A stretch of DNA of 62,346 nucleotides, filler included, from Collodictyon triciliatum (lineage: Eukaryota), in assembly GCA_043381765.1 (NCBI GenBank). It is 2 parts of 2 records of this genome, joined end to end, with 100 filler letters (N's around TTAATTAATTAA, not from the genome) between each part and the next. Parts side by side here need not be neighbours in the genome. Positions count along the whole stretch, not along the records: positions 1 to 31,293 come from JBHJMP010000931.1; 1 more part is not named here. One strand, 5' to 3'. A program made the translations under genes and the position numbers. Under the pieces are notes generated by a model, which saw nothing but the letters and a program-made list of their open reading frames with translations, had not been told where the DNA came from and searched no databases. This document shows, piece after piece, positions 808 through 33,795 of this stretch; within the stretch, counting starts at the first letter, position 1; each line of letters starts with the position of its first letter.

Positions 808-3800
808 ATGGTTGGTCACATAGTATAATTTGATTGTTTTGCCAAATTACTGTCAAATATATTGCATTCGAGGGGGTTGGACTGGCTCTCCTTTTCTTCT
901 TCTTCTTCTTCTTCTTTCGTCCTCTCCTTCACAAGACTGGTACTGCTCTTGCTTAGGTGAACCCGGAAATCCCTGTGGAGGAAGATCAGGACAAGATCCT
1001 TGAAGATTCTCGTAATGTGATCAAGAGCCAAAGCTTCCAAATGAAGCGCTCCCTGGTGAGCCTCACTTTTCCTTTTTCCTTTTTCCTTTTTCCTTTTTCC
1101 TTTTTCCTTTTTCCTTTTCCCTTTTCCTTTTCCTTTTTCCTTTTTCCTTTTTCCTTTTTCCTTTTTCCTTTTTCCTTTTTCCTTTTTCCTTTTTCCTTTT
1201 TCCTTTTTCCTTTATTGAACAATTACTTTCAGTTCCTATGTCAAAACCTTCTTGGAAACCTGCATATGCCGCAATGACAAGGCTTCTGCCAAGTCCTCAA
1301 AGTCTATATAGTAAAACGAACCATACTCCAGGATCAAGGAAAAGTGATGGAGGCCATCAAGTTTTGCAGCGCTCTCATCTCTGAGCTCCGCACTGGTCTC
1401 ATGTCCCCCAAGAATTACTACGATCTTTGTAAGTTGCCATATGCCCCTTCCTCCACCACTAAACTCGCCTACATATTCGGGAAACGGCTGATCAATACCT
1501 TCTATGAGATGCTGATGACATATTCATGCCTCCTTTGGAGCAACCAACCCTCTAAAAACCCAAACATTATCATTCTAGACATGACAGTTTGCGACCAACT
1601 GCGCCATCTAGAATCTCACCTGTGCGATGACTTCACAAAGGGAAAATCGCTCGGCGACCTCTACGAGATTGTGCAGCATGCAGGGAACATCCTACCCCGC
1701 TTGTTTGCCCTCAAATCTGATCATTAAAACTCTTCAACATCAAAATCATATATTGTAGCATAGCACTAATATTATGAGTTGGCCACATACCAAAATCTAT
1801 TTTCTCTTTCTTTACACATGTACATACTCACTTGCTAATGTGCGGCCCCAGGTACCTCCTTTCCACAGTGGGTTCAGTCTACATCAAGACTAGTCAGGCC
1901 CCAGCAAAGGATATCCTTCGCGATCTCGTCGAAATGTGCCGTGGTATTCAGCATCCCATGAGAGGCCTTTTCGTGCGCAACTATCTTTCCCAGATCAGCA
2001 AAGACAAGCTCCCTGACACTATTGAAGAAACGTAGCTACTTCCATTCCTTCCTCTCTCACATTAGCTCCTCACGTGCAAATACACTCAGTAATAACAATA
2101 ATAATCTAATTCGTGTTGAGGGTATATGAGTTGCAGAATGCTGTCTGCCATTTTTTCTTCATCTCACAAACCAATCGACATTATCGGCAAATAAAACTCT
2201 AGCGAGAATGGTAGCGTGAAGGACTCCATCGACTTTGTCATCCAAAACTTCACTGAGATGAACAAGCTCTGGGTTCGTCTTCAACACCAAGGTCCCGTCC
2301 GCGACCGCGAAAAGAGAGAAAGAGAACGCCTCGAACTTCGCATTCTCGTGGGAACAAACCTCGTTCGTCTCAGCCAGCTGGAATCAATTAACACTGAAAT
2401 CTACCGTGAGGTAAGTTGAGCCACAATTTCTTTGCCAGCTTCTTTATAACCATCCTGGCATCCATGTTCTCTCTTTCCTCAAAATTTGCCGAGACTATTT
2501 TTTTTTTTTTTTACACAGGATGTTCTTCCCCGACTGATGGAGCAGATTATCAATTGCAAAGACCAAATAGCTCAGCAATACCTTATGGAATGCGTTATCC
2601 AGGTTTGTTTACCAGAAACGTCATTCATGGACATATCTACCTTTATGTATATCCAATTGTCGAGTTTTTACATATGAGGCATACAGACATCGCAAACTAT
2701 TAAAATTTTAATTCAACCATTTTGCTTCCAAGGTGTTCCCCGATGAATTTCACCTTGGTACATTGGAAACACTTCTTGACTCATGCGTTCAGCTTCAGCC
2801 AGGAGTCAACATTAAAGACATTCTTGGCAGCTTGATCGACCGTCTTGTTAGCTTTTCTATTCGTTCCCCTGATGAAATACCCAAGAACATCGCTATCTTT
2901 GGTATATTCCACGCCCAAATCCGCGAGATTGTTGCAGTAAGTATATCATGGTATCAACCTTAGTATCACCTTCGTAAGGAATATAATAAATATTTTTTTC
3001 TTCACAATAAACGTAATCAAAACAGAAATGCATGCCTTGGTGTGATACAATCCCAGAAATTAGCATCCAATTTCATTCAATCTACAGAACCGCCCCAAGA
3101 TGAGCATGAATGACATTCTGTCACTGCAAGTCTCACTCTTGAACCTTTCGTTGAAGCTATATCCTGAGCGATTAAACCACATCGATAATATATTTGTTTA
3201 CTGTATCGAAAAGTTCCAGGCTGCAGAAACGTCAAAGTATAATTTATATGAAAAGTCATGTATCCCTCAAAGCTTCTCTTGATAAATACGACTCCATTTT
3301 CATGCAACAATCTTATAGACTGGAAAATGAGGCTTGCATCAAAAGGGTGATTGAGCTGCTTACCTCTCCTGTTGACTCATACGGAAGCGTTGTTGCCGTT
3401 CTGGACCTTGAGAACTACACCAAATTGATGGAATACCTCGAGTTCCCTTACCGGAAGAAGGTTCCACGATATCATTTGTTTCTAACTTGATTTCAATCCA
3501 GGTTTATGACTTTTTCTTTGGTTCTTTGTTTCCTTCAGAAAGGAAGATTCCTCTCGCTAGCATGTCTCGTCTGAAGTAAACCTTTGCTCATCAACCAACT
3601 TTACCTGTCAGGTGTCTGTAAATGTTGTGGAAAGTTTGCTTCGCCATAGCAGCTCTCAGATATCTGAAGTGGATAAGGTCAACAAACTACTCACATTCAT
3701 TAGTCCACTTATAGTTGATGACGCTGAAAATAGTGAACAGGATAAGGCAAGTCTGCATATGCGTTATCCAAATCAATAACATATGTTCGCTTTGTGGCAA

Positions 3801-5384
3801 TTACCTCACAAAATATTCGACCATTATGATTCAAAAGGAAGAGTTCGAGGAGGAACAGACGTTAGTTGCTCGTTTGGTTCATTTCTTCGCCTCCAAGGAT
3901 ACTGACATTCAATTCCAGGTTGATATTTAGCCACCATTATAATGAACGCATTTCCAGTATCACGTGTATTTGTTTCATCTGCTGATATAAAAAGAAGCAA
4001 ATAAAGCAATATGTGTTTACGACCTATGATAGCTCTTTGTCGCAGCACGCAAGCATTTCGCTACCGGAGGAGCCCAGCGTATCAAGTTTACTCTCGTCCC
4101 TTTGGTTTTCCAGAGCTTCTCCCTTGTTCAGACTATTCGACAAAAAGAAGAAAAGGTGCTTATTATCTTTATTCCCTTACTTTAGAACCCACACTCTATA
4201 AATTGTGTCCGCATATTGCTATTGACGAACTACCGCGCCTTATTTCATTTATTGTACCTAAAGAGTAAATCTGGTGTAGGGAATTCGCGGGTCAGTTCCA
4301 TCCAAAAAAGTCTTCCAATTCCTCCATGAGATGATTACCGCCTTGGCCGCAAACTACCCAGAATTGTCTCTAAGACTCTTTATGCAGGCTTCTCAGGTCG
4401 CTGATATGTGCGGATTCGAGGCGATTGCATATGAGTTTGTCACTCAGGTAAGCCTGAGATTCCCACTAGTTCTTTCATATAACATATATACCTACTTCTG
4501 GTATTCGTATCTTTCTCTCTCTTTCTCTCTCTTTCTCTCTCTTTTTCGTATGTATTTTTACACAGCCCTGAAGACCTACCAATAACAGCCATTTTTTGAA
4601 TCGGAATATCTTAAGTAGCCTACTGAGTTTTCGTATTTGCTAGGATATCAATCCCCGCACTAACCGCAACGTCTTTATAGGCCTTTGTCCTCTACGAAGA
4701 TAACATCTCTGACTCTAAGAGCCAATGTGCTGCCATCGCAATCATCATCGGCACGCTGCAGCAATCGCAAAACTATAGTGTCGAAAATTACGACACCCTA
4801 ATCACCAAATGTGCTCTCTACTCATCAAAATTGCTTAAGAAGCCTGACCAAAGCCGCTCCATCAGCCTCTGCTCTCATTTATTCTGGAAAGGAACCAGTG
4901 GCGTAAGTGTTATTCTACGAACTGCTTCTCGCTTAATAGTAAGAATCACAAGAGCAATTTTACTTCTCCACTCGCCAAACACTTTTGTAAAGGATGCACT
5001 GTATATTGCTCATGGTCCATATGTTTTTTTTTTTTTTTGGTCATGCAGGACTCTGGGTTCCGCCAAGGTAAACGAGTATTCGAATGCATTCAGCGTTCCT
5101 GCAAAACAGCGGATAGCTATGTGGACCCCGTTGCCCAAGTCGAGCTCTTTGCCGAAATCCTGGGCACTGTCCTCTACTACTTTGAGTCTGAAAACGTGTA
5201 CATCAGCGCAGACTTTATCACAAACTTGATTGGATTGCTCAACACAAAGGTAGCTGGCCTCGAAGCGGGACGCGAAGACACCGTCTCTGTGCTGCAGTTT
5301 GTGCGCAACGTCAAGGACGTGATTGTCCGCCGCCAACGCGACGAAACAAAGTCTGCCCTCTACCGCGACGTCGTTGTCTCTTAG
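808..5384 (+). CDS. VPS35: Vacuolar protein sorting 35, retromer subunit (~16 exons)
   Basis: Spliced exons give [153 protein letters not shown] and LLKKPDQSR...SHLFW. Stop TAG at 5382-5384. The ATG-only first exon at 808-810 is inferred. Confidence 0.97.
1067..1213. repeat. (TTTTTCC/TTTTCC)n pyrimidine microsatellite in VPS35 intron 2
   Basis: Directly visible tandem repeat. Confidence 0.95.
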
Positions 5385-7079: not shown

Positions 7080-10000
7080 TTGCATAAGGAGACTGGCCTT
7101 GCTGCGATAAAAGCTTTTGAAACGAAAGTGGGCACCTGCAAGAAGTTTTTCGGGAAGGAATGCATAGAAGCAAAGAGTTCACGATCTGCTATATTATATT
7201 TGACTTTCTTTTTCATGGCCGGCCCCATTTGTTGTGAAATGGCACCCGAGCCGGACTTTCAAGTCATCAACAATCAAAACCTAACGTCAGCACCAGCACC
7301 ATTCAAGAAGAGTTCATTTGAGTTTCGCCTATGTCCGTTTCCAAATAATGACTTTTGTCTGTGCGCACCTACTTCAAAGACATTCTGTGAGGCTGGTTAC
7401 TACTGCACAGTCCATGCATTATCCAACGAAGTGATTAAACGCCCTTGCTCTTTGGGTAAACTGAATTCATAACACTTTGCATTCTATCATATTTCTTTTA
7501 CTTTCCTCAATCTATTGGTCTGAATATCTAATTCCTGGGATAGTTTGTTCCAAAAATAAATATGTTAAAAAAAAACCAACTGATGGTTTGCTACGTCAAA
7601 CGTATGTCATTTTCATACATCCAAATATGTAGGATTCTATTGCCCGGAAAATACTACAGAACCCATTCACTGTTGCCAGGGATACTATTGTCCGGACCCA
7701 ACGGCTATCAAGATATGTCCGAAAGGTCATTTTTGCAGTATTGGGCAGATAGAACCAACAAGTAAATAATTTACTTTGACGAAGGATACGATAGCGCAGC
7801 CCATTATTATTATTATTATTTTTTTTTTTTACATTTCACCCTGTTTCTTTCAAACTCCATGGAAACAGTGATATGACTAGCAAATAATGAAAAATCAAAA
7901 TCAAGTTATAGAATAGAAGAGACATATTCAGAACATACTTGAAGGATTATATATGGTGAACAAAATCGATACCAAACTCTTTTCTGCCTGATATTATGCT
8001 TATTGTAGGATGCGCTCCTTTATCGAGCTGCCCTGAAGGCTCAAAGGAACAGAAGAAGATAGGTTCGATGGCTATATTTAGTATCGTTGTTTTTTTAATG
8101 GGAGTAGGCTATATTATGGCAGAGTACAGTGTGCTTCGACACAGAAGGATCAAAATGGCGAGGCGTGAAGCGTATGATTAACAGAAAAATATTTTTATTA
8201 TGACCGAAGACGGTATGCGAAAGATTTGTTTTGTTCTTTTACTATATCTGTCTCTTACCACAATCCACTTTACTCTTGAAATTATATTTGATGCAGAATA
8301 AAAAAAGGAGAGATTGAACTTCAGCCCCTCGTGAATGTAAGCCTGGCCCCAAGGACAGAAACGTTTGCGATTCAATTTAATGAGCTGGGCCTCACTCTAC
8401 CTGGTGGCCGGGTAATCATGAATGGTGTGAATGGAGAGCTACTTCCCGGAAAAGTCACAGCCATTATGGGTTCCTTATTTAAGAGACACGAAAACTTAAC
8501 CCGATCTAAAATTTATATGTTTTCCTCTCTTTCTTTTTTTAATCGTCACGGCCTGGAAGACAACTTTGAGTAGACCTCCTAACTCTCTTCTCCACACACG
8601 CACACAGGTCCAAGTGGTGCCGGTAAAACCACATTCCTCTCTCTTATCTCAGGAAAAGTGAAGAAGACGAAAGGGACTGTCCTTATTAATGGTGTGGAGG
8701 AACCTCTGGGAATGGTCAAATTCAAAAAGCTGATTGGCTTTGTTCCCCAAGAAGACATCATGTTGAGAACCATGACTGTTAAGGTATTTCAATATTCTCT
8801 TTCTTTTTTTTTTTCTGCGCTGGCAGAATGAGAATAATGATAAACATGTATATTTTAATTTATACATCAACATTAATGGAAATATTTATCCTTTCAATTG
8901 CATCGCTAGGAAAACTTGGTTTTTAGTGCACGCTATCGGCTGCCTACCCACATAAAAGATCATGAGAAGATTGTTAGAGTTGGGGAAGTATGTGCACCAT
9001 CATGGAATTATGTTTAATTTCCTATGTTTTGTCATCAACCTTATGCTCACGTATTTGAGTACCTTATATTTTAACGACAATATTCGAAAGGTTTTAGAGG
9101 TCCTAGGACTGACAGACATCATGTACTCAGTTATTGGCGATGAAAGGCAGCGAGGAATCAGCGGTGGTCAAAGAAAAAGAGTAAATATTGGAATGGAACT
9201 TGTCGCAGACCCTTCCATTTTGTTTCTGGATGAACCGACATCAGGTAGGATATAAAAAAATATGAGATTTTAGTCTAAAATTTCATTTTTGGATTATCAA
9301 AAAGAAATGACGATACAGATTCGTTTGCTTTTTAACCCTAGTGCGCTCATATATATTGTTTTTTTTTTTTTTTAATATTCCTAGACCTTTAAACTTGACC
9401 AAAAATGGAAATAGGATTGGATAGCACGTCATCCGATGAAGTTTGCAATTGCCTTCGCAATATTTCAGCGTTGGGGATAACAATAGCGACTGTTTTACAC
9501 CAACCTAGATATGAAATATTACAGAAGATTGACAATATCCTCCTGCTTGGAAAAGGTGGGAGGACTGTATACATCGGTCCAACTCAGGGTGCACTCACAC
9601 ACTTTACAGAAATGGGATATATACTACCTCAGCATGGAAATCCGGCCGATTTGTCAGTGATTAAATTACTCCATTCTAATCATAACTTCTGATTTTTTTT
9701 GAATTTTTTTCTTTTTTCTGTCCCCACACCCCACCGGAAGCTTCCTATATATTTATTAAACGCATAAAAAAACCATGTATTTACCAGAGTAATGCCTATA
9801 TTTCTCTATTGAAGTTTCATGGATGCAATATCCGGGAAAATTCACAAGTATAAAGAGAAGCAGCTTACTATAGAAGGTTTTTATTCACGGGGAATTACTC
9901 ATTCAATTTCGGTTTATTGCCTGACAATATTTTATATGCAATCCTAATATTTTCATAATTAATTCTTAAAATAACAACTGTCTAATAGGTAAAGAATTTT

Positions 10001-12519: not shown

Positions 12520-13469
12520 ACTTGTTCGCTGTTTCCTTGGCATGTGCAGCGGGACATCGAATAAACAGATTTCGGCTTGGCCAACCCCTCGCTCCTCATT
12601 TCCCATAGCACCAACCTTTCCTGCAACCCTATCCAGCAATTATTCATCCGATAGTGGCCTGCACAACCACCGATATTTTGTTATCTACGCATGAGGATAT
12701 CATGCGCATTCAGTATCATTTTGGTTGTTTGCTCATTTGCTTGTTTTTCAATGGTCTGTATCTAATTTTCCTCGCTTCGCGCTCTCAAAAGACACAGACG
12801 AAGAGCAGAAAGACCTTCTATCTAAATTTGGGAAATATAATAAAATTGCACAAATTATCTCAAAATGCGTAACGGAGCCATTCATTCCAATTTCCAAACG
12901 CTGGGCGTGTGGTTTAGTCTAAATGAGGACGATGAAAAACGCTATCAACACGCTGGTAACCAAGAAGGAAATTCTATGATTTCTTCCATAGCGATTTTAG
13001 TCGGCGCCGTTGACAGGCTGATTTTCATGTGTGGCTTATACAAGAGCCATACACTCGCGGGGATGCGATCGCTTCTGTGGTGTATAAACCAGAAGATTAA
13101 TTATTGTTTTTCCTCCTGCTGTGCTGTCTACTCTGGAGATATCTAGGCTGCTCTTTTTTTTTTTCTCGCTGGAGAAGCCCTCTTTTTCTTCGTCCTCTCT
13201 TTCTTTTCCCTATCTTTGCTCCTTTTCTACTATTCTCAGCCTTGATTGGTCGACTAGGATATGAATCCAACTAATGCTAAGCTCTCAGAAACACTAACCT
13301 TCAACACTTCGTTGCCTCTAGAGACACCCACCACTTTCGCAAAAGAAAGAGGAGGAAAAGTACTGGAAGAGGACGAAAAAGAGCAAGTAGCCGTGGACTA
13401 GAAAACAATACAAATATTAAGAAAGCAACTGAGATAAAGAAAAGAAGAAGAAAAGAAAGTAAACAAACC

Positions 13470-15638
13470 ATGGATGGCCTTCGCCCTCTGCCACAAAAAC
13501 ACAACCAGATCAAAGCAAGCTCCACGGTTATCTCCACCGTGTTTATTATCTCAATCGTCATAATCGCTGCTTCCCTTTTGCCAATCACGGCCGCTCAACC
13601 AGACGTTATCCGCCGAGGCATCTGCATTCTGCGCGGCACAGGCGTCCGAGATGGTGTGCTAAAAGGCGTGATTCGCCTGCGCCAGAACGGAACATCGCCC
13701 GGCATCAGTATAGATGTGGACATCGAAGGTGTGGGAATCGACGAGACGCACGGCATCCACATCCACCAGTACGGCGACGTCAGCGACCAGCTCAAAGGCC
13801 TCAACAACGGCGCTCACTTTGCAGTGGGCTACATGAGCGACGGAGCCCGCCACGGCCGACCCGGGGATACGAGACCGCGCCCACACAACGGCGACCTGGG
13901 AAATGTCAAGGCCGACTCGCAAGGCCGTGTCAAGACCAGCCTGCTGCCTGTCGTCAACGAATGGGCCACGCTGGATGGACACGAGTACTCGGTCATTGGA
14001 CGCACTGTTGTAATCCACGAGAAGATGGACACGGGCGAGCGAAACACAGAGACGGGCAACGCCGGCGGACGCTTTGGCCAGTGCGTCATCGGCATCGACG
14101 GCCTCCAGGACAACAGCCTCAACTCAGCCATGGCTGCGCCCATCCCCTCGGGGTCTTTCGGCTCCTGCACCTTGAACCCGCTTTCTGACAGCCCAGCCTC
14201 CAAAAGCCGCGTCACTGGAGAGCTCCGCTTCGAGACCACAACGCTGGGCTTTGTCAACATAACCGGGCTGCTCTCGGGGCTGACTCCGTTGACTCCCTTT
14301 GCCTTTGTCATCCACCGCGACGGCAATCTGCAGCAGTCCAGCTCATTGGGACCAACATACGACCCGGACGGCCCTCTTGAGCCAGGCTCCTCTAGATTGC
14401 CAAACATCCATCCGAACTGCCGTGGGATTGCCGAGTATCGTGCATATGTCGACGGCCTACAGTTTCCTCTCACTTCTATCTTGGGCCGCTCGCTTGCCAT
14501 CCACACCATCGACCCGGATGACCCCAGCGGGCAATCTATTGGGGCTGTCCTATCTGCATGTGTTGTTGGGCTTGCTGCACCCACAAAACCCGTCCCGATT
14601 GTGCGTCGAAGTATCATTCCCCGCGCTGATTGCGTCTTGCAAGGAACCGACAAGTACTCCACCGTCTCCGGTCGCATCACAATCAACTCCACTGATGAGT
14701 ACGACTGCACAGTCTCGGCATCCATCTCCGTCTCAGGAATCCCACGCACATCTGCAGGTTTCGAGACAACTACAGCCATCTCTATTCACACAAACGGCGA
14801 CATCTTGGACAAGACCCCGGCAGCCTCACGAGTCGGGCCACTGTTTGTCTCTGAAAAGTTCCCACCTCTAGTCGCGGTCAATGGGTCTTTCACAGGACCT
14901 GTGTACCAGTCTACTGACCAGACTCTCAACTTCAAAATGTCCTTGAGTGATGAGCGCTCTGTCATCGGAAGAAGCATCACACTCAGCATGAAGAACTCTG
15001 GCGACTCGAGCGGTTCTGCACCTGTGCTGGCTCAATGTGTCGTGGGGCTGGCAGACTCGTTTTCTTTCGATGCAGCAGAGCTCGCTCAAAGTCTACCAAA
15101 TTTGAGGATTGGACAACCTGATTCCACAGCCACCGAAGCTGTCGCATCCATGCACCCGACTTTCTTTTTTCCGTCTGTGCAAGGCCAAATCTGGTTCCGC
15201 TCCCGCAATATCACGGGCAAGCACAGTAGTCGCACGCCGATGACAAGTAGTTCTTTCCCTGTGGAAGTGGAGCTGGCGTTGCTGGGAAATCCACTGACCA
15301 ACTATACAATCCGCATCTACAGCCACGGGTCTATTCGGACGCGTGTGGCGAGCAACTTTGGGGAAAACAACTTGCTCTACACAGTGATGTCCATGGGCAG
15401 AGACGCCAAAGGAAACGTGACATTTGACTATAGGTTCTTGTCAGACAAGGATGGCATAATCAGAGTCACGTCATTTCCACTCACGGACTCTCTTGGGCAG
15501 AGTGTCAGTTTAACGAGTCTACTGGGGAAGGCAGTTCTTGTGCAGCCGGTTTATGAAGATGCGGTTTTGACTGCCTACGGATTCGGGGTGATTGGAATCG
15601 CTGAAACAAAGAGCTTTCCTCCCCGAGTCCAGAAGTAA
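13470..15638 (+). CDS. Signal peptide plus four tandem Cu/Zn superoxide dismutase-fold domains; intronless, probably the ectodomain of the downstream receptor kinase
   Basis: Hydrophobic N-terminus VISTVFIISIVIIAASLLPITAA. Repeat 1 has HGIHIHQYGD, GAHF, RHG, HNGDLGNV, VIGRTVVIHE and GNAGGRFGQCVIG. Repeats 2-4 keep the framework motifs ILGRSLAIH/ACVVG, VIGRSITL/QCVVG and LLGKAVLV/FGVIG. Confidence 0.9.
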   Translation: MDGLRPLPQKHNQIKASSTVISTVFIISIVIIAASLLPITAAQPDVIRRGICILRGTGVRDGVLKGVIRLRQNGTSPGISIDVDIEGVGIDETHGIHIHQYGDVSDQLKGLNNGAHFAVGYMSDGARHGRPGDTRPRPHNGDLGNVKADSQGRVKTSLLPVVNEWATLDGHEYSVIGRTVVIHEKMDTGERNTETGNAGGRFGQCVIGIDGLQDNSLNSAMAAPIPSGSFGSCTLNPLSDSPASKSRVTGELRFETTTLGFVNITGLLSGLTPLTPFAFVIHRDGNLQQSSSLGPTYDPDGPLEPGSSRLPNIHPNCRGIAEYRAYVDGLQFPLTSILGRSLAIHTIDPDDPSGQSIGAVLSACVVGLAAPTKPVPIVRRSIIPRADCVLQGTDKYSTVSGRITINSTDEYDCTVSASISVSGIPRTSAGFETTTAISIHTNGDILDKTPAASRVGPLFVSEKFPPLVAVNGSFTGPVYQSTDQTLNFKMSLSDERSVIGRSITLSMKNSGDSSGSAPVLAQCVVGLADSFSFDAAELAQSLPNLRIGQPDSTATEAVASMHPTFFFPSVQGQIWFRSRNITGKHSSRTPMTSSSFPVEVELALLGNPLTNYTIRIYSHGSIRTRVASNFGENNLLYTVMSMGRDAKGNVTFDYRFLSDKDGIIRVTSFPLTDSLGQSVSLTSLLGKAVLVQPVYEDAVLTAYGFGVIGIAETKSFPPRVQK

Positions 15639-18600
15639 TAGATATAGAAAAAAATGATGATACTAAAAACGTGTTACCTTTATCCTTAGGGATTGGCTTA
15701 TCATTTATTTGCATAATCTCGTTGTCGATTTATGGATTTTGGTATAGAAGAAAAATGATCACGTATGTAATGAAAACAAATACAAAACTCTTTGGTTTGA
15801 TTGACCCGTCTGATTTGATCTATGGAAGGAAAATAGGAGAGGGGAGTTTTGGTATTGTAAGTATAGATTTTTATTTATTTATTTATTTGCCAGATAATTC
15901 ATTTTTCTTTAATGATAATATTGATAATGAAAATGATAATGATGATAATCATAATAAAATTATGTAGGTTTTTCAAGGGGAGTGGAGAGGTGCAGATGTT
16001 GCCATAAAACGTATTCAGAAACCAAAAATATCAAGAGAAAGTGTGGAGGCTTTCAAAGGGGAAGTTTCTATGATGGTGTAAGTAGTTTTTTTTCCCCTTT
16101 CTTCTTTTGTAGTGTAAGTAGAATATACTATTTACGATTACTTTAAATAATGCAGCAAGAGTGGTCCTGAACAAAGTTGAAAGGAAGAATAAAAAAAATA
16201 ATGCAGCAAGAGTCTTTTTCTCACACAGTTTTTCTTAACAAAATTTTAACAGGGAATTAAGACACCCAAATATTATTTTGTACATGGGCGCGTGTTTGGA
16301 CGAGTCTCACTTATGTTTGGTATCCGAGTTTATGCAAAACGGAAGCCTCCACGAAATACTCCACCAGGAACATATATCCATTCCTTACAAGCAGAGGATT
16401 CAATTCATGTTGGACATTTCGAAGGGTGAAAAATAACTTGGACACATCCATTTAAGCTTATTCGTATTTCGGTCTATTTTTCTTGTTGCATTCTCATATA
16501 ATTATCCCAGTAGACGATATTTTAACAGAATTACTACGAAATAATCTTAATAGGAATGAATTATCTACATACATCCAGCCCCCCAATACTGCATCGCGAC
16601 TTGAAGAGCTTGAATGTTCTTGTAAGGACCTTTTCGTTTGTCTATCAACTTGTACTGCTTAAAATTCTATTATCATTAGCATCATTAATTTAGACTCTTC
16701 AATATATGATTTTTTTTTATTACGTTCATATTTCTTCCAGCCTTCAACACACGAAAAGAGAATATCACTTTCTTGATAATACGAAAAATAAAAATGAACT
16801 CATGATAATATGTCTTTACCAGGTTGATGATCGAATGAGGCTCAAAGTTAGGTAAATTTTCGTATAAAAGATATAGGAAATTCGTAGTCAAGATTATAAT
16901 TAATCATTAATTTATGAAAAACAGTGACTTCGGTCTCACCACTTTCCAAAATACCATGGAAGCCAACGGAGTCAAAGGAAGCTTACTTTGGTTGGCACCA
17001 GAAGCCATCGGTAGTGGCGAATATGGGCCTCCAGCAGATGTTTATAGCTTTGCAATTATATGCTGGGAAATTATTGCTCGGTCAGATCCTTATGAAGAGA
17101 TCGAAAACCTATCTTGCGTTCCAACCCTAGTTGTTTTAGAGGGTCTGCGCCCTCCGCTGACATCAGATGTTCCTGACCAATTGAGGCTTATTGTTACCAA
17201 ATGTTGGTCTCAGCTGCCTTCTGATAGACCGTCATTTCAAGAGACATCCAGAGAGTTATCGGTAACCACATTTTTAAACAAAGAAAACCACATATATTAA
17301 TCGATGATTTATCGACGATTCATGAGATTCTTTCCCATTATATCTATTTAGACGATGTTGTCAACCTCTGGAAGTACACCGGCTTCTTTTCTGGTATTGT
17401 CCCTTCTTTTATTGAATGTGAACATTCAGCCACAAGCGCGTTCCTCATCTTTTTATTTGGAAATATTACTCAACATATGATGCTTCAGTAAAGCGATACA
17501 TTAATGGGTAAATATTATAGAATGTTTTGGAAGAAAAAGAAGTGATACCTAACGGAGAAGTTGTGGTTGTATGCACTCGGGTATTCGGATCTGAATCTTT
17601 ATGGGACGAAATACCAGAAATAATGTGTGAGGCGACCATTTCTCACAACAAAATCATACGCCAGGTTAGTATGCCAACAAAAATTCTTACGAAATTAAAA
17701 TTAGTGTTAATACTAGTATTCTTCTTCTATTAATCACCAAATAAAATCAAGCTGGCATCAATGAATGCCGGATACATAAGCCAAAATGATGGAGAAAATT
17801 TTAATGTTGTATTCCCGGAACCGTATCATGCAATCAAGTATTGTCAAATGAATGCATTCTTTGAAGAATTATCTTTTTTTTTTTTTGGATCTGGCCCTGT
17901 ATTAACAAATCGCTTGAAAACTTCAAAAAACTTTGTATAGGTTTTCTGTCGAATTACAATCAGATCTTCAAACTTGCACTTGGCCACAGGGTTTATTGGA
18001 AAATGAATATGGAAGGTCGATTATGAACGACTCACTGCGAGGCTTGCGAATTCAAATTGTATGATTTAGGGGACAATTATTTTCTTTTAATTCTCACCCC
18101 AATAAATCACGAAATATTTTAAAGGTCCAACAATCATTTTACAATAGGGAATATCGCATGGAACATGCACAACATCAATAGACTCTTTGACCGCGCGCAC
18201 TAAATTTTCTGGGAAGGTACCTCTTCGACATTGATTTCATATAGTGATTTTCGTAATGATCTGTTTTGGACCCTCATTTTTGTTTTGCTAGATTTATTTT
18301 TTATAACAAGAAAAAAAGAAAGAATAAAAAACAATAAGAAAAAAACCTTCACAATTCATGTGAGTTCCGTAAAGGTCGTATCAGTGGCGTCAAAATTGAG
18401 TCGCATGGCTCATGGCGGACAAATTTTACTGACAGCACCTTTAATTCATGTGAATATTTCCTTTTTATTCATTTCTATGTGAACATATTACACTAACAAA
18501 ATCATAATAGAACATATAAAAGCTAGTTTTTTCTCTTCATCATTCTTTTGTAAATCGTATTCATTTCTAATTGTATATCATAGCACTTGGGTGAAAGACT

Positions 18601-20658
18601 CCATGAAATCGAGTCGATGACAATACTCACTCCAATTGTGAAAGAAAATTTTGGAGGCATTACAGCTACCGGACTTTATGCAGTGAGTACAATCTAAGCT
18701 ACTTTTCACAAATCATTCTTGAAACCCAAGACTTTTTTTTTTAAAAAAAAGAGCATATATTATGTCAAAAAGCTGAAAATAAAGAAAAATCACAAGTCCA
18801 ACGCATTTCTCCTCAGGTGTACTCAAAATTTATGAGAAAACGGGCGGATGAAATGGATTTAATGAATAGTACTATATTGAATGAGTCGAAACTTACTTCA
18901 TACTTGGTAACGATTTTACCTCAAATGCACATTATGAGTTGATGCTAGATTACTTTTTTCTAAAATATGTTCTGTGAATTGAAAAGGGCAACAACACATC
19001 ATTTATCCATCAGCCAAATGCTTTGTCTAGCTGTGAGATGGATGCTTCTACGGCGAATAAAGAGTCTAAGAGCCTTACTTCGGAATCAAAAGATGGTTTA
19101 AGTAAATTGAATAGTACTAATAAACTCGACTCAAGTGACAGTATTCAAGGAAAGAAAAACTGGGATATTTCTTTCTCTGAATTGGTAATGGACGAGGGAC
19201 ACCTTGGCACAGGGTCTTTTGGAACTGTCACAGCAGGATGTTATAAGGTTATTTTGCTACGATTTACAGCGTTTAACTAAAGAAAATTCATATTTTGTGA
19301 AATAGAAGACTAATTATTGGTCGTAACAGTCATACTTATTCCTTTGAATTGAATTATGTATCACATATAAACAAATTGGTGGTAATATCACATTTGCAAT
19401 CTCGATATATTTAATCATGACACAGGGAATCAAAGTTGCTGTTAAAAAAATGGCCGTGCAGAGTATGAAGGACAAATATTACCTCACCTTTCTTGCAGAG
19501 ATATCAGTTCTCAAGTAATCATGCAAACTTAATCTATTTACTTGACTGTCTACTTATCATTTATGTTCATATATATTTTTTTCATATCCTCAGGAAAATT
19601 GTCCATCCAAATATTGTCAAGCTGATTGGCGTTTGCACAGAGCCTCCCAACTTGGCTATTGTAATGGAATTGGTAACACCAGGCAGCCTTAGCGACTATC
19701 TCAGAAACAGGGCCAACCCTCTATCTCACGATGCAAAGTAATATCTTTACACCTAGTTCAAAGTATAATTGCAGTAATCCTTATGAGTCTTTTCCCCCGG
19801 TTTTTATTCATCCAGAGACAATATTATACGCGGAATATTATCTGGAATGAGTTATCTTCATTCACAAAAGCCACCAATTTTACATCGTGATTTGAAAACT
19901 GCAAATATTCTTGTGAGTTTTTACCTGATAAATGTATGCAGAATTTTATGGTTTCATGAATAGTGTGGTGATGTAATTGACTTATTTTGCATCATTGGTA
20001 GTTGAACGAGGATTTGGAATCAAAAATATGCGATTTCGGTTTTGCTCGAGCTCGAGTTCATAACCGGACGATGACAAAATGTGGAACTCTGACATACCAA
20101 GCACCAGAGGTTTATATCAATCTTACAGAAATTCATTTTTATTTATTTTATGATGCATTACTGATAATGATAATAACGATGATAATTGTAATATCACCTC
20201 CAATATTACTGCTACCAAGATCGCTATCTTCAACCATAAGCATAACCTCAACATTAACATCATCATTATGATTATCTTCATTATAATGAGGTTTTTTTTT
20301 ATTGTTATTTTAAATCAATGCCTGTTCCCTTTGGAACTCACAATGCATATGTACGTGCTAGGTAATCAAAGGGGGCCGATACGACGAAAAAGCTGATGTA
20401 TACAGCTTCGGTATCATCCTTTGGGAGATTGAGACGCGGGAACAGCCTTTCGGCAACCGCGACCCAATTGCTGTCCAATTCGACGTCTTGAGTGGACTTC
20501 GGCCAGAGTCCCGCCCAACCATGAATTCGAGGCTTCTTCGAATGATGTCGTCCTGTTGGGACGGAAATCCTCGTAAACGTCCATCTTTCAGCACTTTACA
20601 CGACACGTTTGGGAGTTCTCGTCAACAAGATACAGATGCGCCCCAGTTGACTTCCTGA
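15605..20658 (+). CDS. TM helix + TKL kinase + degenerate class III nucleotide cyclase domain + second TKL kinase (multi-exon)
   Basis: TM LSLGIGLSFICIISLSIYGFWYRRK. Kinase 1: IGEGSFGIV, VAIK, LRHPNIILYMG, HRDLKSLNVL, DFG, GSLLWLAPE, DVYSFAII. Cyclase-like: PNGEVVVV..SESLWD..HNKIIR..WPQGLL..RGLRIQIGI..AHGGQILL. Kinase 2: LGTGSFGTV, VAVK, HRDLKTANIL, CDFGFAR, CGTLTYQAPE, DVYSFGII. Stop TGA at 20656-20658. Confidence 0.93.
16145..16213 (+). mobile_element. Short A-tailed insertion flanked by an 18-bp direct repeat (TSD-like) in a kinase intron
   Basis: AAATAATGCAGCAAGAGT at 16145-16162 and 16196-16213 flanks GGTCCTGAACAAAGTTGAAAGGAAGAATAAAAA. Confidence 0.55.
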
Positions 20659-20979
20659 CAATCTTAATGATTTCTGCATCGCCCACCCGCCCCATCGAGG
20701 AGCTATTTAAAGCTATAAATTTCAACCCTATGTTTGTTTCATAGTAGGTTTGCCAGGCGAAAAATTTTCCAAAGATCGATCTATTTCTGCATATCATCAA
20801 ATCTCATCACGGTGTGGATAAATGTGGTGATCACGCTGAGAGGGACAGACTTGAGAGGGACAAATAATAATAATAATAAAAGGGGAACTGAAAGACCTAT
20901 CGAACTCAAGCCATCGACCCACGGGTAGCAAGATAATTAGGATTATAGTGCTCAGTAGTTGTTGCTCTGATTCATTTAT

Positions 20980-24322: not shown

Positions 24323-27300
24323 ATGGAATTCTTTGGAGTCGGTGTGATGGAACAAACAGCCCTGAAAAAGTATGTGCCATTACTTGGTTATCTGCTTTCT
24401 TCCTATCTTCCATTATCATTATCATTATCATTATCATTATCATTATCATTATCATTATCATTATCATTATCATTATCATTATCATTATCATTATCATTAT
24501 CATTATCATTATCATTATCATTATCATTATCAATATCATTATCAATATCAATATCATTATCATTATCATTATCATTATCATCATCACGTTCATTTCTCCT
24601 TTGCCGCAAGGACCTTATTAATATTAGACTATATTTTTTTTTATCATCGCTTCAACACATGGATTCTAATACCTTGTCACGAAATGTAAGGCCTCCAATT
24701 TGGAAAAGACTCTTCGATCCCTCCAGAATTCTCGCATTCTTCACGATGCTCAACTTTCTTGTCTACTTTGACCGAGGCGCTGTTGCGGTTGGTGCCCACA
24801 TCACTTTTTTTTTCTGAAATAACCAACGTGTCCTTTTATTTTCTTTATTTTTTTTTTAAAAAAAATTGACCTTTTGCTTCTTTTCTAGTAACAAATTCAG
24901 CCGAAATTATGTATCTAATGCATATTTTCTGTTCTTATTATTGCATTATGGTATTTTTATCCATCTATGTGTTTGGGTTTAGGGCCTTTTATCGGTCATC
25001 GACGAAGATTACGACCTAAATGAAATATCCAATGGTTTTCTATCTGGTACATTTATTTAGTGATGCTTTTGCCCCAAAAGATGACACTTTTTTCCCCTGC
25101 TAATTTTTTTCATTTATTCGATATTTCTCGGCCGATCCTTTAAAATATGGTTATGTGGGACTATATCGAATAGAATCGGTTATTTGTATGCATATGTTTT
25201 ATTGATTGCTCCTTTCGTTTACTTTTGAAGATTCTACTTCATATTGGTATAGGTGCGTTTATGATAGGTTACATCCTATTTTACTTTGTCTTCAATTTTG
25301 TGTCAAGTGAAACCAATCTTCCTCTTCTCCTTTTCATCGGGCTTATTTCCTGGTCTATCGGTACAATAACGACAGGTATATTTACAATATAAAATGCTGA
25401 GTAAAAGGGATGAATTTAATTCACTTGATATTTATATGTGTAATTATTTGATGAGTCCTTTCTCTTTAACTTAACGGGTATAATTATACTGAAGAAATTT
25501 ACACTATTCGTTTCCATGCTATTCAAACATAAAGTTTGGGCACCAAATTACCAGATATTTTTAATCACACGAATGCTAACTGGAGCAGCAGAAGCAGCTT
25601 ATGCTGGTTAGTGCTCAGCGTAAAAGTGTCCTGAATATATTTGTCTTATAAATTGTTTCAAAGAAAGATTGGTATCATTTTAAAATTTCAACATTCGACT
25701 TTTTTTTTAAAAATTATTTCATTTGTCAAACTAGTTCCCTCTTCTTCTTTGATTATATAAGCCTCTTAAATCAAAGTAACTCTTGAACATTACATAAAAT
25801 CAGGCGTGGCTCCAGTGTATTTGGATGACAATTGTCCTCAAGATTCCAGATTTGTAGCTGAGCCTTCATTTCTTCCTATCAAAATTCATTTTCATGTTCT
25901 GGAATCTATAATTATATTTTATTTGCAATAGTTATGGCTCTCACTCTACTATGTGTCTATTCCAATTGGCGCCGGTAAACTTGATATTAGGCAGAATATC
26001 GAAATGCCAAGAAACAATATTTCGAGTGCTTTACTTCTAACCAGACTATTGACTACACATTACAATTCTAGCTTTGGGAATGACCTCTGCTGGGTATCTT
26101 GACTATGTCTGGGAATGGGAGTACCTTTTTGCTATCGAAGGTAGGGAGCGTATATGGCATCTACCTTTTTCATACTGAAACGATTTTCACCAAACTTAAC
26201 AATAATTTCACAGTGAATTTGATTTTGAAAAAGAATCGTTCGGACAAATAGTTATCGTATCTTTTACATTCATGCTTTAATATGTTCAAAATGTACACAG
26301 GCATCATCATGTTACCCCTTTCCTTCTTGTCACTTGCGATACCTTCAGATTGGTTCTTGGAGTACAGCCAAAGCTCTAGTGCTGCATTAAAAGTACGAGC
26401 TTATAATTAGTTACGATAATTAAATGCAAATGGTTTCAAATAAAAACTTTTGTTAAGTTTCATATCTTATTGGTCTTTAAATCTAATAAAAAAAATCCTG
26501 AAAAAAACAACAATCAAATCTAATATGATATAATAGCTCTTCTAAGTACGCATGTGTGACTATTCTCGTTTAAATAGAGAGGTTCAACAACAGATGCCAT
26601 GGGTGCTCCCCTTCTTTCGGTCAAAAGCACTGACAAATTTTACTCTGGATTTTTGCAACTGTGCCGAATCTTGAAAGACAACAAAATATATCTTTATCTC
26701 GTCCTTGGAAAAGCTACGTATATATTCTATGCAGGAGCTTTTTCATTCTGGATGCCGCACTTCATCCAAGAAGAATACGATTTGTCTATCCGCCAATCTA
26801 ACCTGAGTGCGTCTCATATTATTCTTGCTATTGATTTCGCTCCCTTTATTCCTCTGCCTTGCCATTTTCCTATTTTTCTCACCGCCTGAATGACAACCAA
26901 CTAGTTTTTGGAATAACCACCCTGCTGGCTGGTTTATTTGGTGCTTGTATCGGAGGTAGCTTCCTAGATAGCCTTTCTAACAAACACTTGCAAAACTGGG
27001 CCAAATGCATTCTATCCATCAAGGTTGGGAATGAATTAACACATTTTCCCCCTTCCTGGACATATTCTGGGATTTGGATGAAACGAAACAAAATTATATA
27101 ATATACGCAGTAACCATGTCTTCTATCTTCATACATTCCAACACACTATTAATATCAATCCATCCATTTTTGGTCATTATTTCTTTTGCCATCTACATAA
27201 TCTCACTATATCATCTACATTAATTTTCAGATATCGTGTATTGTCATTCTCGTGGCAGTCCCAATTTCAGTCTCGATATTCTTTGTTCCTAATGAGACTG

Positions 27301-33712: not shown

Positions 33713-33795
<83 letters not shown>

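What the first reader, a model, noticed from the sequence alone, without database searches (positions are those of the whole stretch)
13470..20658. Receptor kinase with a four-SOD ectodomain: candidate superoxide- or metal-sensing signalling receptor
Seen: signal peptide, four tandem Cu/Zn-SOD folds, a single TM helix with an RRK stop-transfer, then TKL kinase, cyclase-like domain and TKL kinase on one strand with no intergenic space. Known: the kinase-cyclase-kinase cytoplasmic module occurs in Acanthamoeba and mimivirus receptor-like kinases, and SOD-repeat proteins are known as extracellular proteins without kinase domains. Inference: joining an apparently catalytic extracellular SOD to a dual kinase is an architecture I do not recognise as described. 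It could couple extracellular ROS or Cu/Zn status to phosphorylation.
Basis: partly seen in the sequence, partly recalled or inferred. Interest (0 to 1): 0.85.

Follow-up and report, generated by a model that had tools for sequence, protein, structure and literature searches.

The report
Receptor kinase with superoxide-dismutase ectodomain
This protist gene joins an outward-facing copper/zinc superoxide dismutase with an intact metal site, through one membrane helix, to a known kinase/cyclase-like/kinase signalling module; this combination was found in no paper searched, and the copy here carries a one-base frame break.

Summary
The architecture is real, with two corrections. (1) In the window the SOD reading frame (13470-15638) ends at a TAA. 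The membrane helix and kinase follow in another frame, and no GT..AG intron can join them. A spliced, polyadenylated contig from a 97-99% identical relative (run X1) has one extra C in the C-run at 15621-15624. That makes a single 1607-aa ORF of 20 exons. Two Diphylleia rotans transcripts (P0002, P0004) show the same fusion. (2) Only SOD domain 1 keeps all Cu/Zn ligands and Arg143. Domains 2-4 are degenerate SOD-like barrels, with D4 supported only by hhalign (83%) and a pLDDT-65 model. The cyclase-like domain has lost five of six catalytic residues. Both kinase domains look intact.

The cytoplasmic module belongs to the described "cyclase kinase" receptor family of Amoebozoa and giant viruses, seen here also in Diphylleia and Thecamonas. 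Among the 150 best of 2277 SOD relatives, only the two Diphylleia proteins also carry a kinase. Four literature searches found no description.

Trees and base composition suggest the SOD ectodomain is an intron-less, GC-rich cassette shuffled between paralogous receptors. Sensing of superoxide or metal is plausible but untested. Verdict: a new variant of a known kind.

The parts
13470..20658 (+). Whole coding region: 20 exons, 19 GT..AG introns of 73-252 nt. It gives 1607 aa if one base is added in the C-run at 15621-15624.
   Evidence: Model built. 15 of 19 introns are seen as GT..AG joints in spliced contigs of X1/X2. The other four (16425/16554, 17393/17521, 17664/17752, 18906/18987) are inferred from GT..AG, reading frame and collinearity with P0002.
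13524..13595 (+). N-terminal hydrophobic segment (residues 19-42): signal peptide or signal anchor.
   Evidence: Kyte-Doolittle scan: residues 13-47 reach a mean of up to 2.62. 13470 is the first in-frame ATG after the stop at 13278-13280.
13608..14105 (+). SOD domain 1, with a complete Cu/Zn site. Window residue (human SOD1 residue): H97 (H46), H99 (H48), H116 (H63), H128 (H71), H139 (H80), D142 (D83), H183 (H120), R201 (R143).
   Evidence: Pfam 93.8 bits. phmmer to PDB SOD1 chains, E 2e-32 to 3e-18, with alignment shown. All eight residues are identical in P0002 and P0004.
14133..14585 (+). SOD-like domain 2, degenerate: keeps only the H48 and H120 equivalents and has no Zn site.
   Evidence: Pfam 34.7 bits. 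hhalign 98.8%. Ligand string VHT--RH.
14607..15059 (+). SOD-like domain 3, degenerate.
   Evidence: Pfam 14.6 bits, below cut-off. hhalign 97.7% to the SOD profile and 97.2% to D1.
15126..15617 (+). SOD-like domain 4, highly diverged, with no metal ligands.
   Evidence: No Pfam hit. hhalign 83%, E 9e-6, over 145 columns. AF2 model pLDDT 65.5. Foldseek rows listed are all Cu,Zn SOD, E 3.4e-5, TM 0.46-0.56.
15621..15638 (+). Frame break: the C4 run at 15621-15624, followed by the resulting in-frame TAA at 15636-15638.
   Evidence: X1 contig record 3 has 'C put in behind 15620' (depth 7.84 of 7.84) and runs on through the TM into kinase exons. The three-protein alignment places the break between ..SFP and PSPEV...
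15671..15754 (+). Transmembrane helix (residues 735-759) plus the RRK stop-transfer (760-762).
   Evidence: Hydropathy 2.17 over residues 732-759. The same position holds TM segments in P0002 (849-874) and P0004 (724-750).
15815..17261 (+). Kinase domain 1 (residues 783-1035, six exons). Motifs GEGSFG, VAIK, HRDLKSLN, DFG and APE are all present.
   Evidence: Pfam PK_Tyr_Ser-Thr/Pkinase hits on exon pieces. Motif positions.
17524..18625 (+). Cyclase-homology domain (residues 1051-1227, six exons), catalytically degenerate.
   Evidence: hmmsearch E 3e-54 against a profile of the family's cyclase domains. Key positions read R, Q, E, K, S, K where canonical cyclases have D, K, D, D, N, R. The single exons gave no PF00211 hit (0 of 6).
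19176..20604 (+). Kinase domain 2 (residues 1340-1590, six exons). Motifs GTGSFG, VAVK, HRDLKTAN, DFG and APE are all present.
   Evidence: Pfam hits on exon pieces. Motif positions.
20659..20734 (+). 3' UTR up to the poly(A) addition site.
   Evidence: An X1 contig ends at 20734 followed by 24 A not in the window (table 7).

Best explanation
13470-20658 is one gene for a type-I, single-pass receptor of the 'cyclase kinase' family (ectodomain, TM, TKL-type kinase, class-III cyclase-homology domain, second kinase). It sits in a relative of the freshwater flagellate Diphylleia rotans.

Shown: the usual ligand-binding ectodomain is replaced by four Cu/Zn-SOD-type beta-barrels. The membrane-distal D1 keeps the complete copper and zinc sites and the substrate-guiding arginine. 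D2-D4 have lost them. The cyclase-homology domain has lost five of six catalytic residues. Both kinase domains have complete catalytic motifs.

Inferred: D1 binds Cu and Zn and dismutates superoxide at the cell surface or in the phagosome lumen. D2-D4 act as a rigid stalk or interaction modules. The pseudo-cyclase domain serves as the dimerisation element, as class-III cyclase domains are obligate dimers. The output is phosphorylation, not cAMP or cGMP.

Most speculative step: metal occupancy or redox turnover of D1 changes ectodomain order or pairing, and so sets kinase trans-phosphorylation.

The window copy has a 1-nt shorter C-run that breaks the frame. I read this as an assembly error or a very recent lesion in an otherwise intact gene.

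My odds for each step:
- One fused gene in this lineage: about 0.9.
- The break is an assembly error or a recent lesion rather than an old, stable truncation: about 0.7.
- D1 binds metal and is active: about 0.6.
- Pseudo-cyclase with kinase output: about 0.75.
- The SOD site acts as the signal input: about 0.3.
For: Fusion. X1 contig record 3 (681 nt) covers 15404-15856, 15968-16077 and 16253-16369, with one inserted C behind 15620 and two introns removed. None of its six substitutions creates a stop. P0002 (1684 aa, complete ORF) carries Sod_Cu, two kinase stretches and Guanylate_cyc. P0004 carries Sod_Cu, a TM and the start of a kinase. Both are Diphylleia rotans transcripts. The window model is collinear with P0002.

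Gene integrity. All 19 introns are GT..AG and there are no other stops. Of 35 coding differences to X1 that were listed, 20 are synonymous and none touches the D1 site.

D1 site. It is aligned to human SOD1. All eight residues are identical in the window, P0002 and P0004 at 40-49% overall identity, while D2-D4 lost them.

Cyclase-homology domain. The profile hit is E 3e-54. The window reads R-Q-E-K-S-K against D-K-D-D-N-R in bacterial cyclases and in Diphylleia P0158, P0159 and P0160. Metal Asp1 is D in 80 of 113 family rows.

Kinase motifs.

Family. Of 120 hits listed, relatives come from Diphylleia, Amoebozoa, Thecamonas and giant viruses. The family is described in PMC4053784 and PMC4758236 (passages).
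Against: The window itself reads a stop at 15636. Only one contig, from a non-identical relative, shows the extra C. No run covering 15620 came from the window's own strain, and two metagenome scans found nothing.

D1 lacks the canonical C57-C146 disulfide. It has a beta1 Cys plus a 'QC' motif in beta8 instead. That pair is shared by 112 of 343 SOD domains in a hit set selected by similarity to the query, so the count is biased.

D4 rests on an 83% hhalign probability and a model of pLDDT 65.

Ectodomains in this family are very diverse (Kelch, PBP-like, ANF-receptor, 5'-nucleotidase). An enzyme-derived ectodomain may therefore only bind something.

Nothing here links the state of D1 to kinase activity. 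No enzyme, localisation or phosphorylation data exist.

The Asp2 position is Glu, as in Acanthamoeba and mimivirus members, so residue-based calls of cyclase inactivity are strong but not proof.
Confidence: 0.55

Rival explanations
1. The frame break is real in this organism. The locus then makes only a secreted or anchor-less 722-aa four-domain SOD protein, or is a young pseudogene. The kinase half is untranslated.
For: The window sequence reads TAA at 15636-15638, and no canonical intron rescues the frame. X1 differs from the window at 1-2% of positions, so it is not the same strain. Stand-alone multi-SOD secreted proteins are common: 148 of the 150 best hits.
Against: The difference is a single base in a C homopolymer. 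Downstream, 19 introns and about 2.5 kb of coding sequence remain free of stops with intact motifs. Differences to X1 are biased toward synonymous changes on both sides of the break.
Confidence: 0.3
2. The receptor is real, but D1 is only a membrane-anchored protective enzyme. It removes superoxide at the surface or in the phagosome, and the kinases are regulated by something else. There is no sensing through the SOD site.
For: The complete catalytic residue set of D1 is conserved in three proteins. That is what selection for enzyme activity alone would give. No tool result links D1 to the kinases.
Against: Anchoring an enzyme does not need an 850-residue dual-kinase tail that is itself conserved. 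The same ectodomain sits on two different receptor backbones, which suggests it serves as a receptor input.
Confidence: 0.25
3. The SOD-like barrels are a binding module for a protein or glycan ligand, for example from prey or a partner SOD. The D1 metal site is structural only, as with other enzyme-derived receptor ectodomains.
For: Three of the four domains have lost catalysis yet are conserved in order and length. SOD-like non-catalytic domains that dock onto SOD1 exist: the yeast SOD1-CCS heterodimer entry 1jk9 is among the fold hits. Other family members use binding-type ectodomains such as Kelch and PBP-like.
Against: D1 keeps not only the metal ligands but also Arg143, which matters for substrate guidance rather than for fold (the role of Arg143 is recalled knowledge).
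Confidence: 0.15
4. Two separate genes: a secreted SOD-repeat protein and an independent kinase gene that merely abut.
For: A stop codon and a frame change lie between them in the window.
Against: One spliced contig bridges both parts. The TM helix has no start codon of its own; the frame is open from 15605 and the first ATG lies after the helix. Diphylleia transcripts are fused.
Confidence: 0.03

Closest known systems
'Cyclase kinases' / receptor nucleotidyl cyclases of Acanthamoeba castellanii (66-67 genes) and Physarum polycephalum (43 genes), and the 'serine/threonine-protein kinase/receptor' genes of mimi-, moumou-, pandora-, cedrat-, pitho-, medusa- and marseilleviruses
   Same: Single TM, then kinase, class-III cyclase-homology domain and a second kinase. 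Identity over the whole cytoplasmic module is 30-40%. The family is described in PMC4053784 and PMC4758236 (passages).
   Different: Their ectodomains are PBP-like, ANF-receptor, 5'-nucleotidase or Kelch types (precomputed Pfam lists). None of the 120 listed hits except P0002 carries Sod_Cu. The window's cyclase domain has lost five of six catalytic residues, whereas 80 of 113 family rows keep metal Asp1.
Diphylleia rotans transcripts P0002 (EP00002 P030361, 1684 aa) and P0004 (P005175, 823 aa, truncated)
   Same: The same SOD x4 - TM - kinase(-cyclase-kinase) design. D1 is intact and D2-D4 degenerate. Ectodomain identity is 40-49%.
   Different: These are unannotated transcriptome ORFs with no description found. 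The P0002 cytoplasmic module belongs to a different subclade from the window's (AU p 2e-46), and it keeps four of six cyclase residues.
Secreted multi-domain Cu/Zn SOD proteins (SOD-repeat proteins; 148 of the 150 best hits) and solved Cu,Zn SODs such as human SOD1
   Same: D1 has the fold and all metal ligands. It shares the beta1-Cys/'QC' pattern with 112 of 343 domains in the hit set.
   Different: None has a TM followed by a kinase. Most of their repeats keep all seven ligands (262 of 343 domains), whereas here only one of four does.
Copper chaperone for SOD (CCS) domain II, and receptor tyrosine phosphatases zeta/gamma with a carbonic-anhydrase-like ectodomain (both recalled, not tested)
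   Same: Enzyme-derived domains that have lost catalysis and serve for docking or ligand binding, as D2-D4 may.
   Different: D1 here appears catalytically complete. There is no sequence relationship to the phosphatases.
Known ROS-linked kinase signalling: plant HPCA1 and cysteine-rich receptor-like kinases, and yeast SOD1 stabilising casein kinase Yck1 (recalled; a CRK preprint was seen only in the listing)
   Same: The idea that extracellular ROS, or SOD-made H2O2, controls a kinase.
   Different: Those sensors use cysteine oxidation, or a soluble SOD1 acting in trans. None has a SOD domain built into the receptor.

Membership tests
Cu/Zn superoxide dismutase (Pfam PF00080) | Sequence match above the Pfam gathering score (28.9 bits) | tested here: met
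   Met for D1 (93.8 bits) and D2 (34.7 bits). D3 scores 14.6 bits and D4 gets no hit, so it is not met for those two.
Cu/Zn superoxide dismutase (Pfam PF00080) | Greek-key beta-barrel fold in all four domains | tested here: inconclusive
   hhalign gives 100, 98.8, 97.7 and 83%. Only D4 was modelled (pLDDT 65.5). The Foldseek rows listed are all SODs, but TM is only about 0.5.
Cu/Zn superoxide dismutase (Pfam PF00080) | Cu ligands H46, H48, H63 and H120; Zn ligands H63, H71, H80 and D83; Arg143 | tested here: met
   D1 has all of them. D2-D4 do not: their ligand strings read VHT--RH and SH-----, and D4 has none. Only D1 is therefore filed as a candidate enzyme.
Cu/Zn superoxide dismutase (Pfam PF00080) | Intrasubunit disulfide C57-C146 | tested here: not met
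   D1 has no Cys in loop IV. It has a Cys in beta1 and at the position after 146 instead.
Cu/Zn superoxide dismutase (Pfam PF00080) | Superoxide dismutase activity and metal content | not testable with these tools
   Needs purified protein.
Cyclase-kinase receptors (ectodomain-TM-kinase-cyclase-kinase) | Domain order with a single TM helix | tested here: met
   Model. Hydropathy. Pfam on exon pieces. Cyclase profile hit.
Cyclase-kinase receptors (ectodomain-TM-kinase-cyclase-kinase) | Homology of the whole cytoplasmic module to family members | tested here: met
   BLASTP gives 33-44% identity over about 830 residues to Diphylleia members and unnamed metagenome- and assembly-derived members. 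In the tree the window nests inside a clade of 13 rows, 10 of which were looked up and all are Diphylleia (SH-aLRT 99).
Cyclase-kinase receptors (ectodomain-TM-kinase-cyclase-kinase) | One uninterrupted reading frame in this window | tested here: not met
   There is a 1-nt frame break at 15621-15624. It is intact in the X1 relative.
Class III nucleotidyl cyclase (PF00211), active enzyme | Two metal-binding Asp, the substrate-specifying Lys/Asp pair, and the transition-state Asn and Arg | tested here: not met
   The window reads R, E, Q, K, S, K at these positions. It is homologous to cyclases but is not filed as an active cyclase.
TKL-type protein kinases (two domains) | Glycine loop, VAIK Lys, HRD..N, DFG and APE | tested here: met
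   All are present in both domains by direct reading.
TKL-type protein kinases (two domains) | Assignment to the TKL group rather than another kinase group | tested here: inconclusive
   On the longer pieces PK_Tyr_Ser-Thr scores above Pkinase; three short pieces score the other way. Named relatives are 'TKL/DRK protein kinase' from Fonticula and Phytophthora. No kinome-level classification was run.

The most novel reading that the evidence does not exclude
The receptor is an enzymatic sensor. Copper redox cycling or Cu/Zn occupancy of the intact SOD domain D1 changes ectodomain order or pairing. This gates the two kinases through the pseudo-cyclase dimer, giving a phagotrophic protist a direct receptor for extracellular or phagosomal superoxide, or for copper or zinc. 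In addition, the SOD ectodomain is a mobile, intron-less cassette that has been grafted onto at least two different paralogous receptor backbones.
Probability: 0.2. Interest if true: 0.85.

Novelty: new variant of a known kind. Interest (0 to 1): 0.6.

Why it matters
As far as I recall, no member of the kinase-cyclase-kinase receptor family has a known ligand or a tested output. The two genome papers I read in passages count the family (66 of Acanthamoeba's 67 cyclases, 43 in Physarum) but do not address this.

An ectodomain whose chemistry is known makes the family's signalling logic testable. The input can be manipulated with superoxide generators, chelators or site mutants. The degenerate cyclase predicts a purely kinase output.

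The locus also shows an apparently intact enzyme active site recruited as a receptor ectodomain. Most enzyme-derived ectodomains that I recall are catalytically dead.

It places the family in Diphyllatea (CRuMs) and apusomonads as well as Amoebozoa and giant viruses. Together with the Diphylleia proteins, it also gives an example of ectodomain cassette shuffling between paralogous receptors.

Tried and rejected
- Joining the two frames by a canonical intron. The AG acceptors at 15640, 15646 and 15688 all give the wrong phase for every upstream GT. A 26-50 nt intron ending at 15613 would remove the conserved beta8 strand of D4. Rejected (own reading).
- Separate genes. Rejected on the X1 bridging contig.
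- No RNA holder is listed on record for this stretch. X1 and X2 are only guessed to be RNA. I relied on their spliced joints and the poly(A) end, not on the label.
- X2, X3 and X4 do not cover 15559-16060. This says nothing either way.
- No whole genome is held for the window.
- Earlier-findings look-ups by place and by sequence returned nothing.
- Metagenome scans, one by D4 protein and one by a 27-nt exact pattern just upstream of the C-run: no relative and no match.
- Pfam on single cyclase-domain exons: 0 of 6 hits. This was resolved with a family profile instead.
- The word-based search with the P0002 cyclase region alone gave only 4 proteins.
A SOD ectodomain in Acanthamoeba therefore cannot be excluded from that source. 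None appears among the 120 family hits listed.
- I looked for a second frameshift in the window as a sign of assembly indels. The Vps35 frame switch at 4905-5048 is an ordinary GT..AG intron.
- Complex prediction was not run. A pass for a SOD-SOD or cyclase-cyclase pair would rest on likeness to textbook dimers. No binding claim is made from it.

Full report
**What is in the sequence.** The window is eukaryotic nuclear DNA with short GT..AG introns. On the + strand, an ORF runs from the first in-frame ATG at 13470 to a TAA at 15636-15638 (722 aa). It hits Pfam Sod_Cu at E 4.5e-39. Immediately downstream, a different frame is open from 15605. It encodes ..PSPEVIDIEKNDDTKN, then a 25-residue hydrophobic helix, RRK, and the glycine loop of a protein kinase. 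I checked every AG between the stop and the helix (15640, 15646, 15688). All give the same exon phase, which no upstream GT matches. The only phase-compatible mini-introns would delete the conserved last strand of the fourth SOD domain.

**The junction.** I laid four public runs on 13300-20800. None is on record as RNA. Run X1 nevertheless contains contigs with GT..AG joints at 14 intron positions and a contig that ends at 20734 followed by 24 A. These are spliced, polyadenylated molecules. X1 also holds unspliced sequence in intron 19248-19425.
- X1 record 3 (681 nt) covers 15404-15856, 15968-16077 and 16253-16369.
- It carries a single inserted C behind 15620, so the C4 run at 15621-15624 is C5.
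- With that base, the SOD frame runs straight into the helix and kinase.
- The record's six substitutions cause no stop.
- X1 is 97-99% identical to the window, so it is a relative or another strain.
- No laid contig from the window's own genotype covers 15620, and two metagenome scans found nothing.
- Whether the window's C4 is an assembly error or a real lesion stays open. I put about 0.7 on an error or a very recent lesion. Everything else in the gene is intact. Of the 35 coding differences to X1 that one search printed (40 rows shown, 60 not shown), 20 are synonymous and 15 are not, and none touches the D1 site.

**Gene model.** With N at the break, 20 exons give 1607 aa with no other stop. 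Spliced contigs confirm 15 of 19 introns. Four are inferred from GT..AG, frame and homology. The model aligns to P0002 in one HSP: model 47-1588 against P0002 75-1673, 37% identity. No second copy lies in the window.

**Independent support for the fusion.** A search restricted to longer proteins found P0002 (1684 aa, 40% identity over 94% of the SOD ORF). Pfam finds Sod_Cu, two kinase stretches and Guanylate_cyc in it.

An exhaustive phmmer search over 1.84 billion representatives gave 2277 hits. I ran Pfam on all 150 listed. Only P0002 and P0004 also carry a kinase. P0004 is 823 aa with SOD domains, a TM and the first 50 residues of a kinase. The other 148 are SODs or multi-SOD proteins, some with Kunitz, EGF, Kelch or glycosidase domains.

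Both fusions are transcripts of Diphylleia rotans in EukProt. The three-way alignment places the window's break between ..ETKSFP and PSPEV.., where the Diphylleia proteins read ..PP(I/S)...

**The ectodomain.**
- D1 scores 93.8 bits in Pfam and E 2e-32 to 3e-18 against solved SOD1 chains.
- Aligned to human SOD1, D1 keeps H46, H48, H63, H71, H80, D83, H120 and R143. In window numbering these are H97, H99, H116, H128, H139, D142, H183 and R201.
- All eight residues are identical in P0002 and P0004.
- D1 lacks the canonical C57-C146 disulfide. It has a Cys in strand 1 and a 'QC' motif in strand 8 instead.
- That Cys pair occurs in 112 of the 343 SOD domains of the hit set, of which 262 keep all seven ligands. 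I read it as a subfamily trait, but the set is biased toward the query.
- D2 (34.7 bits) and D3 (14.6 bits, below threshold) reach 98.8% and 97.7% in hhalign. They have lost the zinc site and most copper ligands.
- D4 has no Pfam hit. It rests on hhalign (83%, E 9e-6, 145 columns) and a three-sequence AlphaFold model (pLDDT 65.5, pTM 0.64). The Foldseek rows listed for that model are all Cu,Zn SOD entries (E from 3.4e-5, TM 0.46-0.56; 135 hits at E <= 0.001).
- 'Four SOD folds' is thus reasonable. 'Catalytic' applies to D1 alone.

**The cytoplasmic part.** Both kinase domains carry the glycine loop, VAIK/VAVK, HRDLK..N, DFG and APE motifs. The Pfam family PK_Tyr_Ser-Thr scores above Pkinase on most pieces.

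Between the kinases, residues 1051-1227 match a profile of the family's cyclase domains at E 3e-54. Single exons were too short for Pfam (0 of 6).

At the six canonical class-III positions, the bacterial cyclase P0156 and Diphylleia P0158, P0159 and P0160 read D-K-D-D-N-R. The window reads R-Q-E-K-S-K, and P0002 reads K-K-D-G-N-R. Metal Asp1 is D in 80 of 113 family rows. All 13 members of the window's subclade lack it. I therefore call the domain a pseudo-cyclase. From what is established for class-III cyclases, which are obligate dimers, I infer that it is kept as a dimerisation element.

**Family and distribution.** Searching with the cytoplasmic part of P0002 returned 2172 hits. The 120 listed include:
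- many Diphylleia proteins with Kelch ectodomains;
- Amoebozoa (Acanthamoeba, Physarum, Mastigamoeba, Mastigella, Luapelamoeba, Thecamoeba);
- Thecamonas trahens;
- mimi-, moumou-, mega-, pandora-, cedrat-, pitho-, medusa- and marseilleviruses.

Only P0002 lists PF00080 among them.

This is the family described in two papers. One reports 67 'nucleotidyl cyclases' with an extracellular domain, one TM and a cyclase flanked by two kinases in Acanthamoeba, then thought unique to it and to giant viruses (PMC4053784, passages). The other reports 'cyclase kinases', 66 in Acanthamoeba and 43 in Physarum (PMC4758236, passages). An earlier scan note on a pandoravirus member agrees (e1-623970). Four full-text searches found no paper linking a SOD ectodomain to a kinase or cyclase receptor. 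Supplementary figures were not readable.

**Cassette shuffling.** I built a quick maximum-likelihood tree of the cytoplasmic module. It used the 44 best of 74 rows that span at least 780 residues of the window's cytoplasmic query in the BLASTP alignment; the other 30 were left out. The model was LG+G4.
- The window falls among Kelch-type Diphylleia receptors P0178, P0179, P0184 and P0203 (SH-aLRT 99).
- P0002 falls with P0158 and P0159 in another clade (SH-aLRT 97-98).
- Holding the window and P0002 together costs 298 log-likelihood units (AU p = 2e-46). I named this group after seeing the tree.
- The ectodomains are nevertheless collinear homologues.
- In the window, the ectodomain is coded by 2.15 kb without introns, at GC 0.56 and GC3 0.63 (D1: 0.62 and 0.74).
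- Composition drops to GC 0.33 at the TM. The cytoplasmic coding sequence has GC 0.42 and GC3 0.40. The gene's 19 introns (GC 0.28) all lie in its cytoplasmic part, downstream of the TM.
- I infer that the SOD ectodomain has been exchanged as a block between paralogous receptors. A 5'-3' GC gradient is an alternative explanation for the composition alone.

**How it most likely works.**
- Shown: the domain order, the topology signals, an intact metal site in D1 only, intact kinase motifs, and a degenerate cyclase.
- Inferred: D1 binds Cu and Zn and dismutates superoxide outside the cell or in the phagosome; D2-D4 form a stalk or docking surface; the pseudo-cyclase holds the receptor as a dimer; the output is phosphorylation.
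- Speculative (about 0.3): the metal or redox state of D1 sets kinase activity.
- The argument for a working site is selective retention. Eight of eight residues are kept in three proteins at 40-49% identity, while three sister domains in the same chain lost them.
- That retention equally fits an anchored protective enzyme, so sensing needs experiments.

**Context.** Neighbouring genes are Vps35 (1278-5381), an ABC transporter (about 8956-9689), an OATP-like transporter (26578-26886) and cytochrome c1 (41865-42562, minus strand). None suggests a functional link.

**Verdict.** This is a new ectodomain variant of a known receptor family, found so far only in Diphylleia and its relative. It is interesting because it makes the family's signalling testable.

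Noticed in passing
window 13470-15620 versus 15621-20658: There is a sharp break in composition and gene structure inside one gene. The ectodomain coding block is intron-less, with GC 0.56 and GC3 0.63. The TM and juxtamembrane part has GC 0.33. The cytoplasmic coding sequence has GC 0.42, and all 19 AT-rich introns of the gene lie downstream of the TM. The switch coincides with the frame break.
   Followed up: partly
window 16164-16199 (inside intron 16078-16252): A stretch of about 35 nt reaches depths of 26-164 in all four runs, including the two metagenomes, with loose ends on both sides. It is probably a short dispersed repeat. The intron also holds two copies of a motif of about 17 nt, near 16148 and 16197 (read).
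   Followed up: no
window 33656-34991: This stretch lies in the window's most AT-rich 2-kb bin (34001-36000, GC 0.228). ORFs of 286-399 aa are open in all six frames, and none of the four scanned has a Pfam hit. It looks like low-complexity or simple-repeat DNA.
   Followed up: no
proteins P0219, P0272 and P0158-P0203: The kinase-cyclase-kinase receptor family is not confined to Amoebozoa and giant viruses. Diphylleia rotans has many members, mostly with Kelch-repeat ectodomains. Thecamonas trahens has at least one. A Rhodelphis marinus protein has the kinases with a 5'-nucleotidase-type domain. One Diphylleia subclade (13 rows including the window) has lost metal Asp1 of the cyclase throughout.
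   Followed up: partly
window 19248-19425: Run X1 holds both the spliced form (joint 19245/19424, depth 4.9) and a contig that reads into this intron (differences at 19261, 19297 and 19303, depth 9.2). This means intron retention, or genomic DNA in that run.
   Followed up: no
window 1278-5381 (+), 8956-9689 (+), 26578-26886 (+), 41865-42562 (-): Ordinary housekeeping neighbours: Vps35, an ABC transporter, an OATP-like transporter and cytochrome c1. The Vps35 frame switch at 4905-5048 is a normal GT..AG intron.
   Followed up: partly
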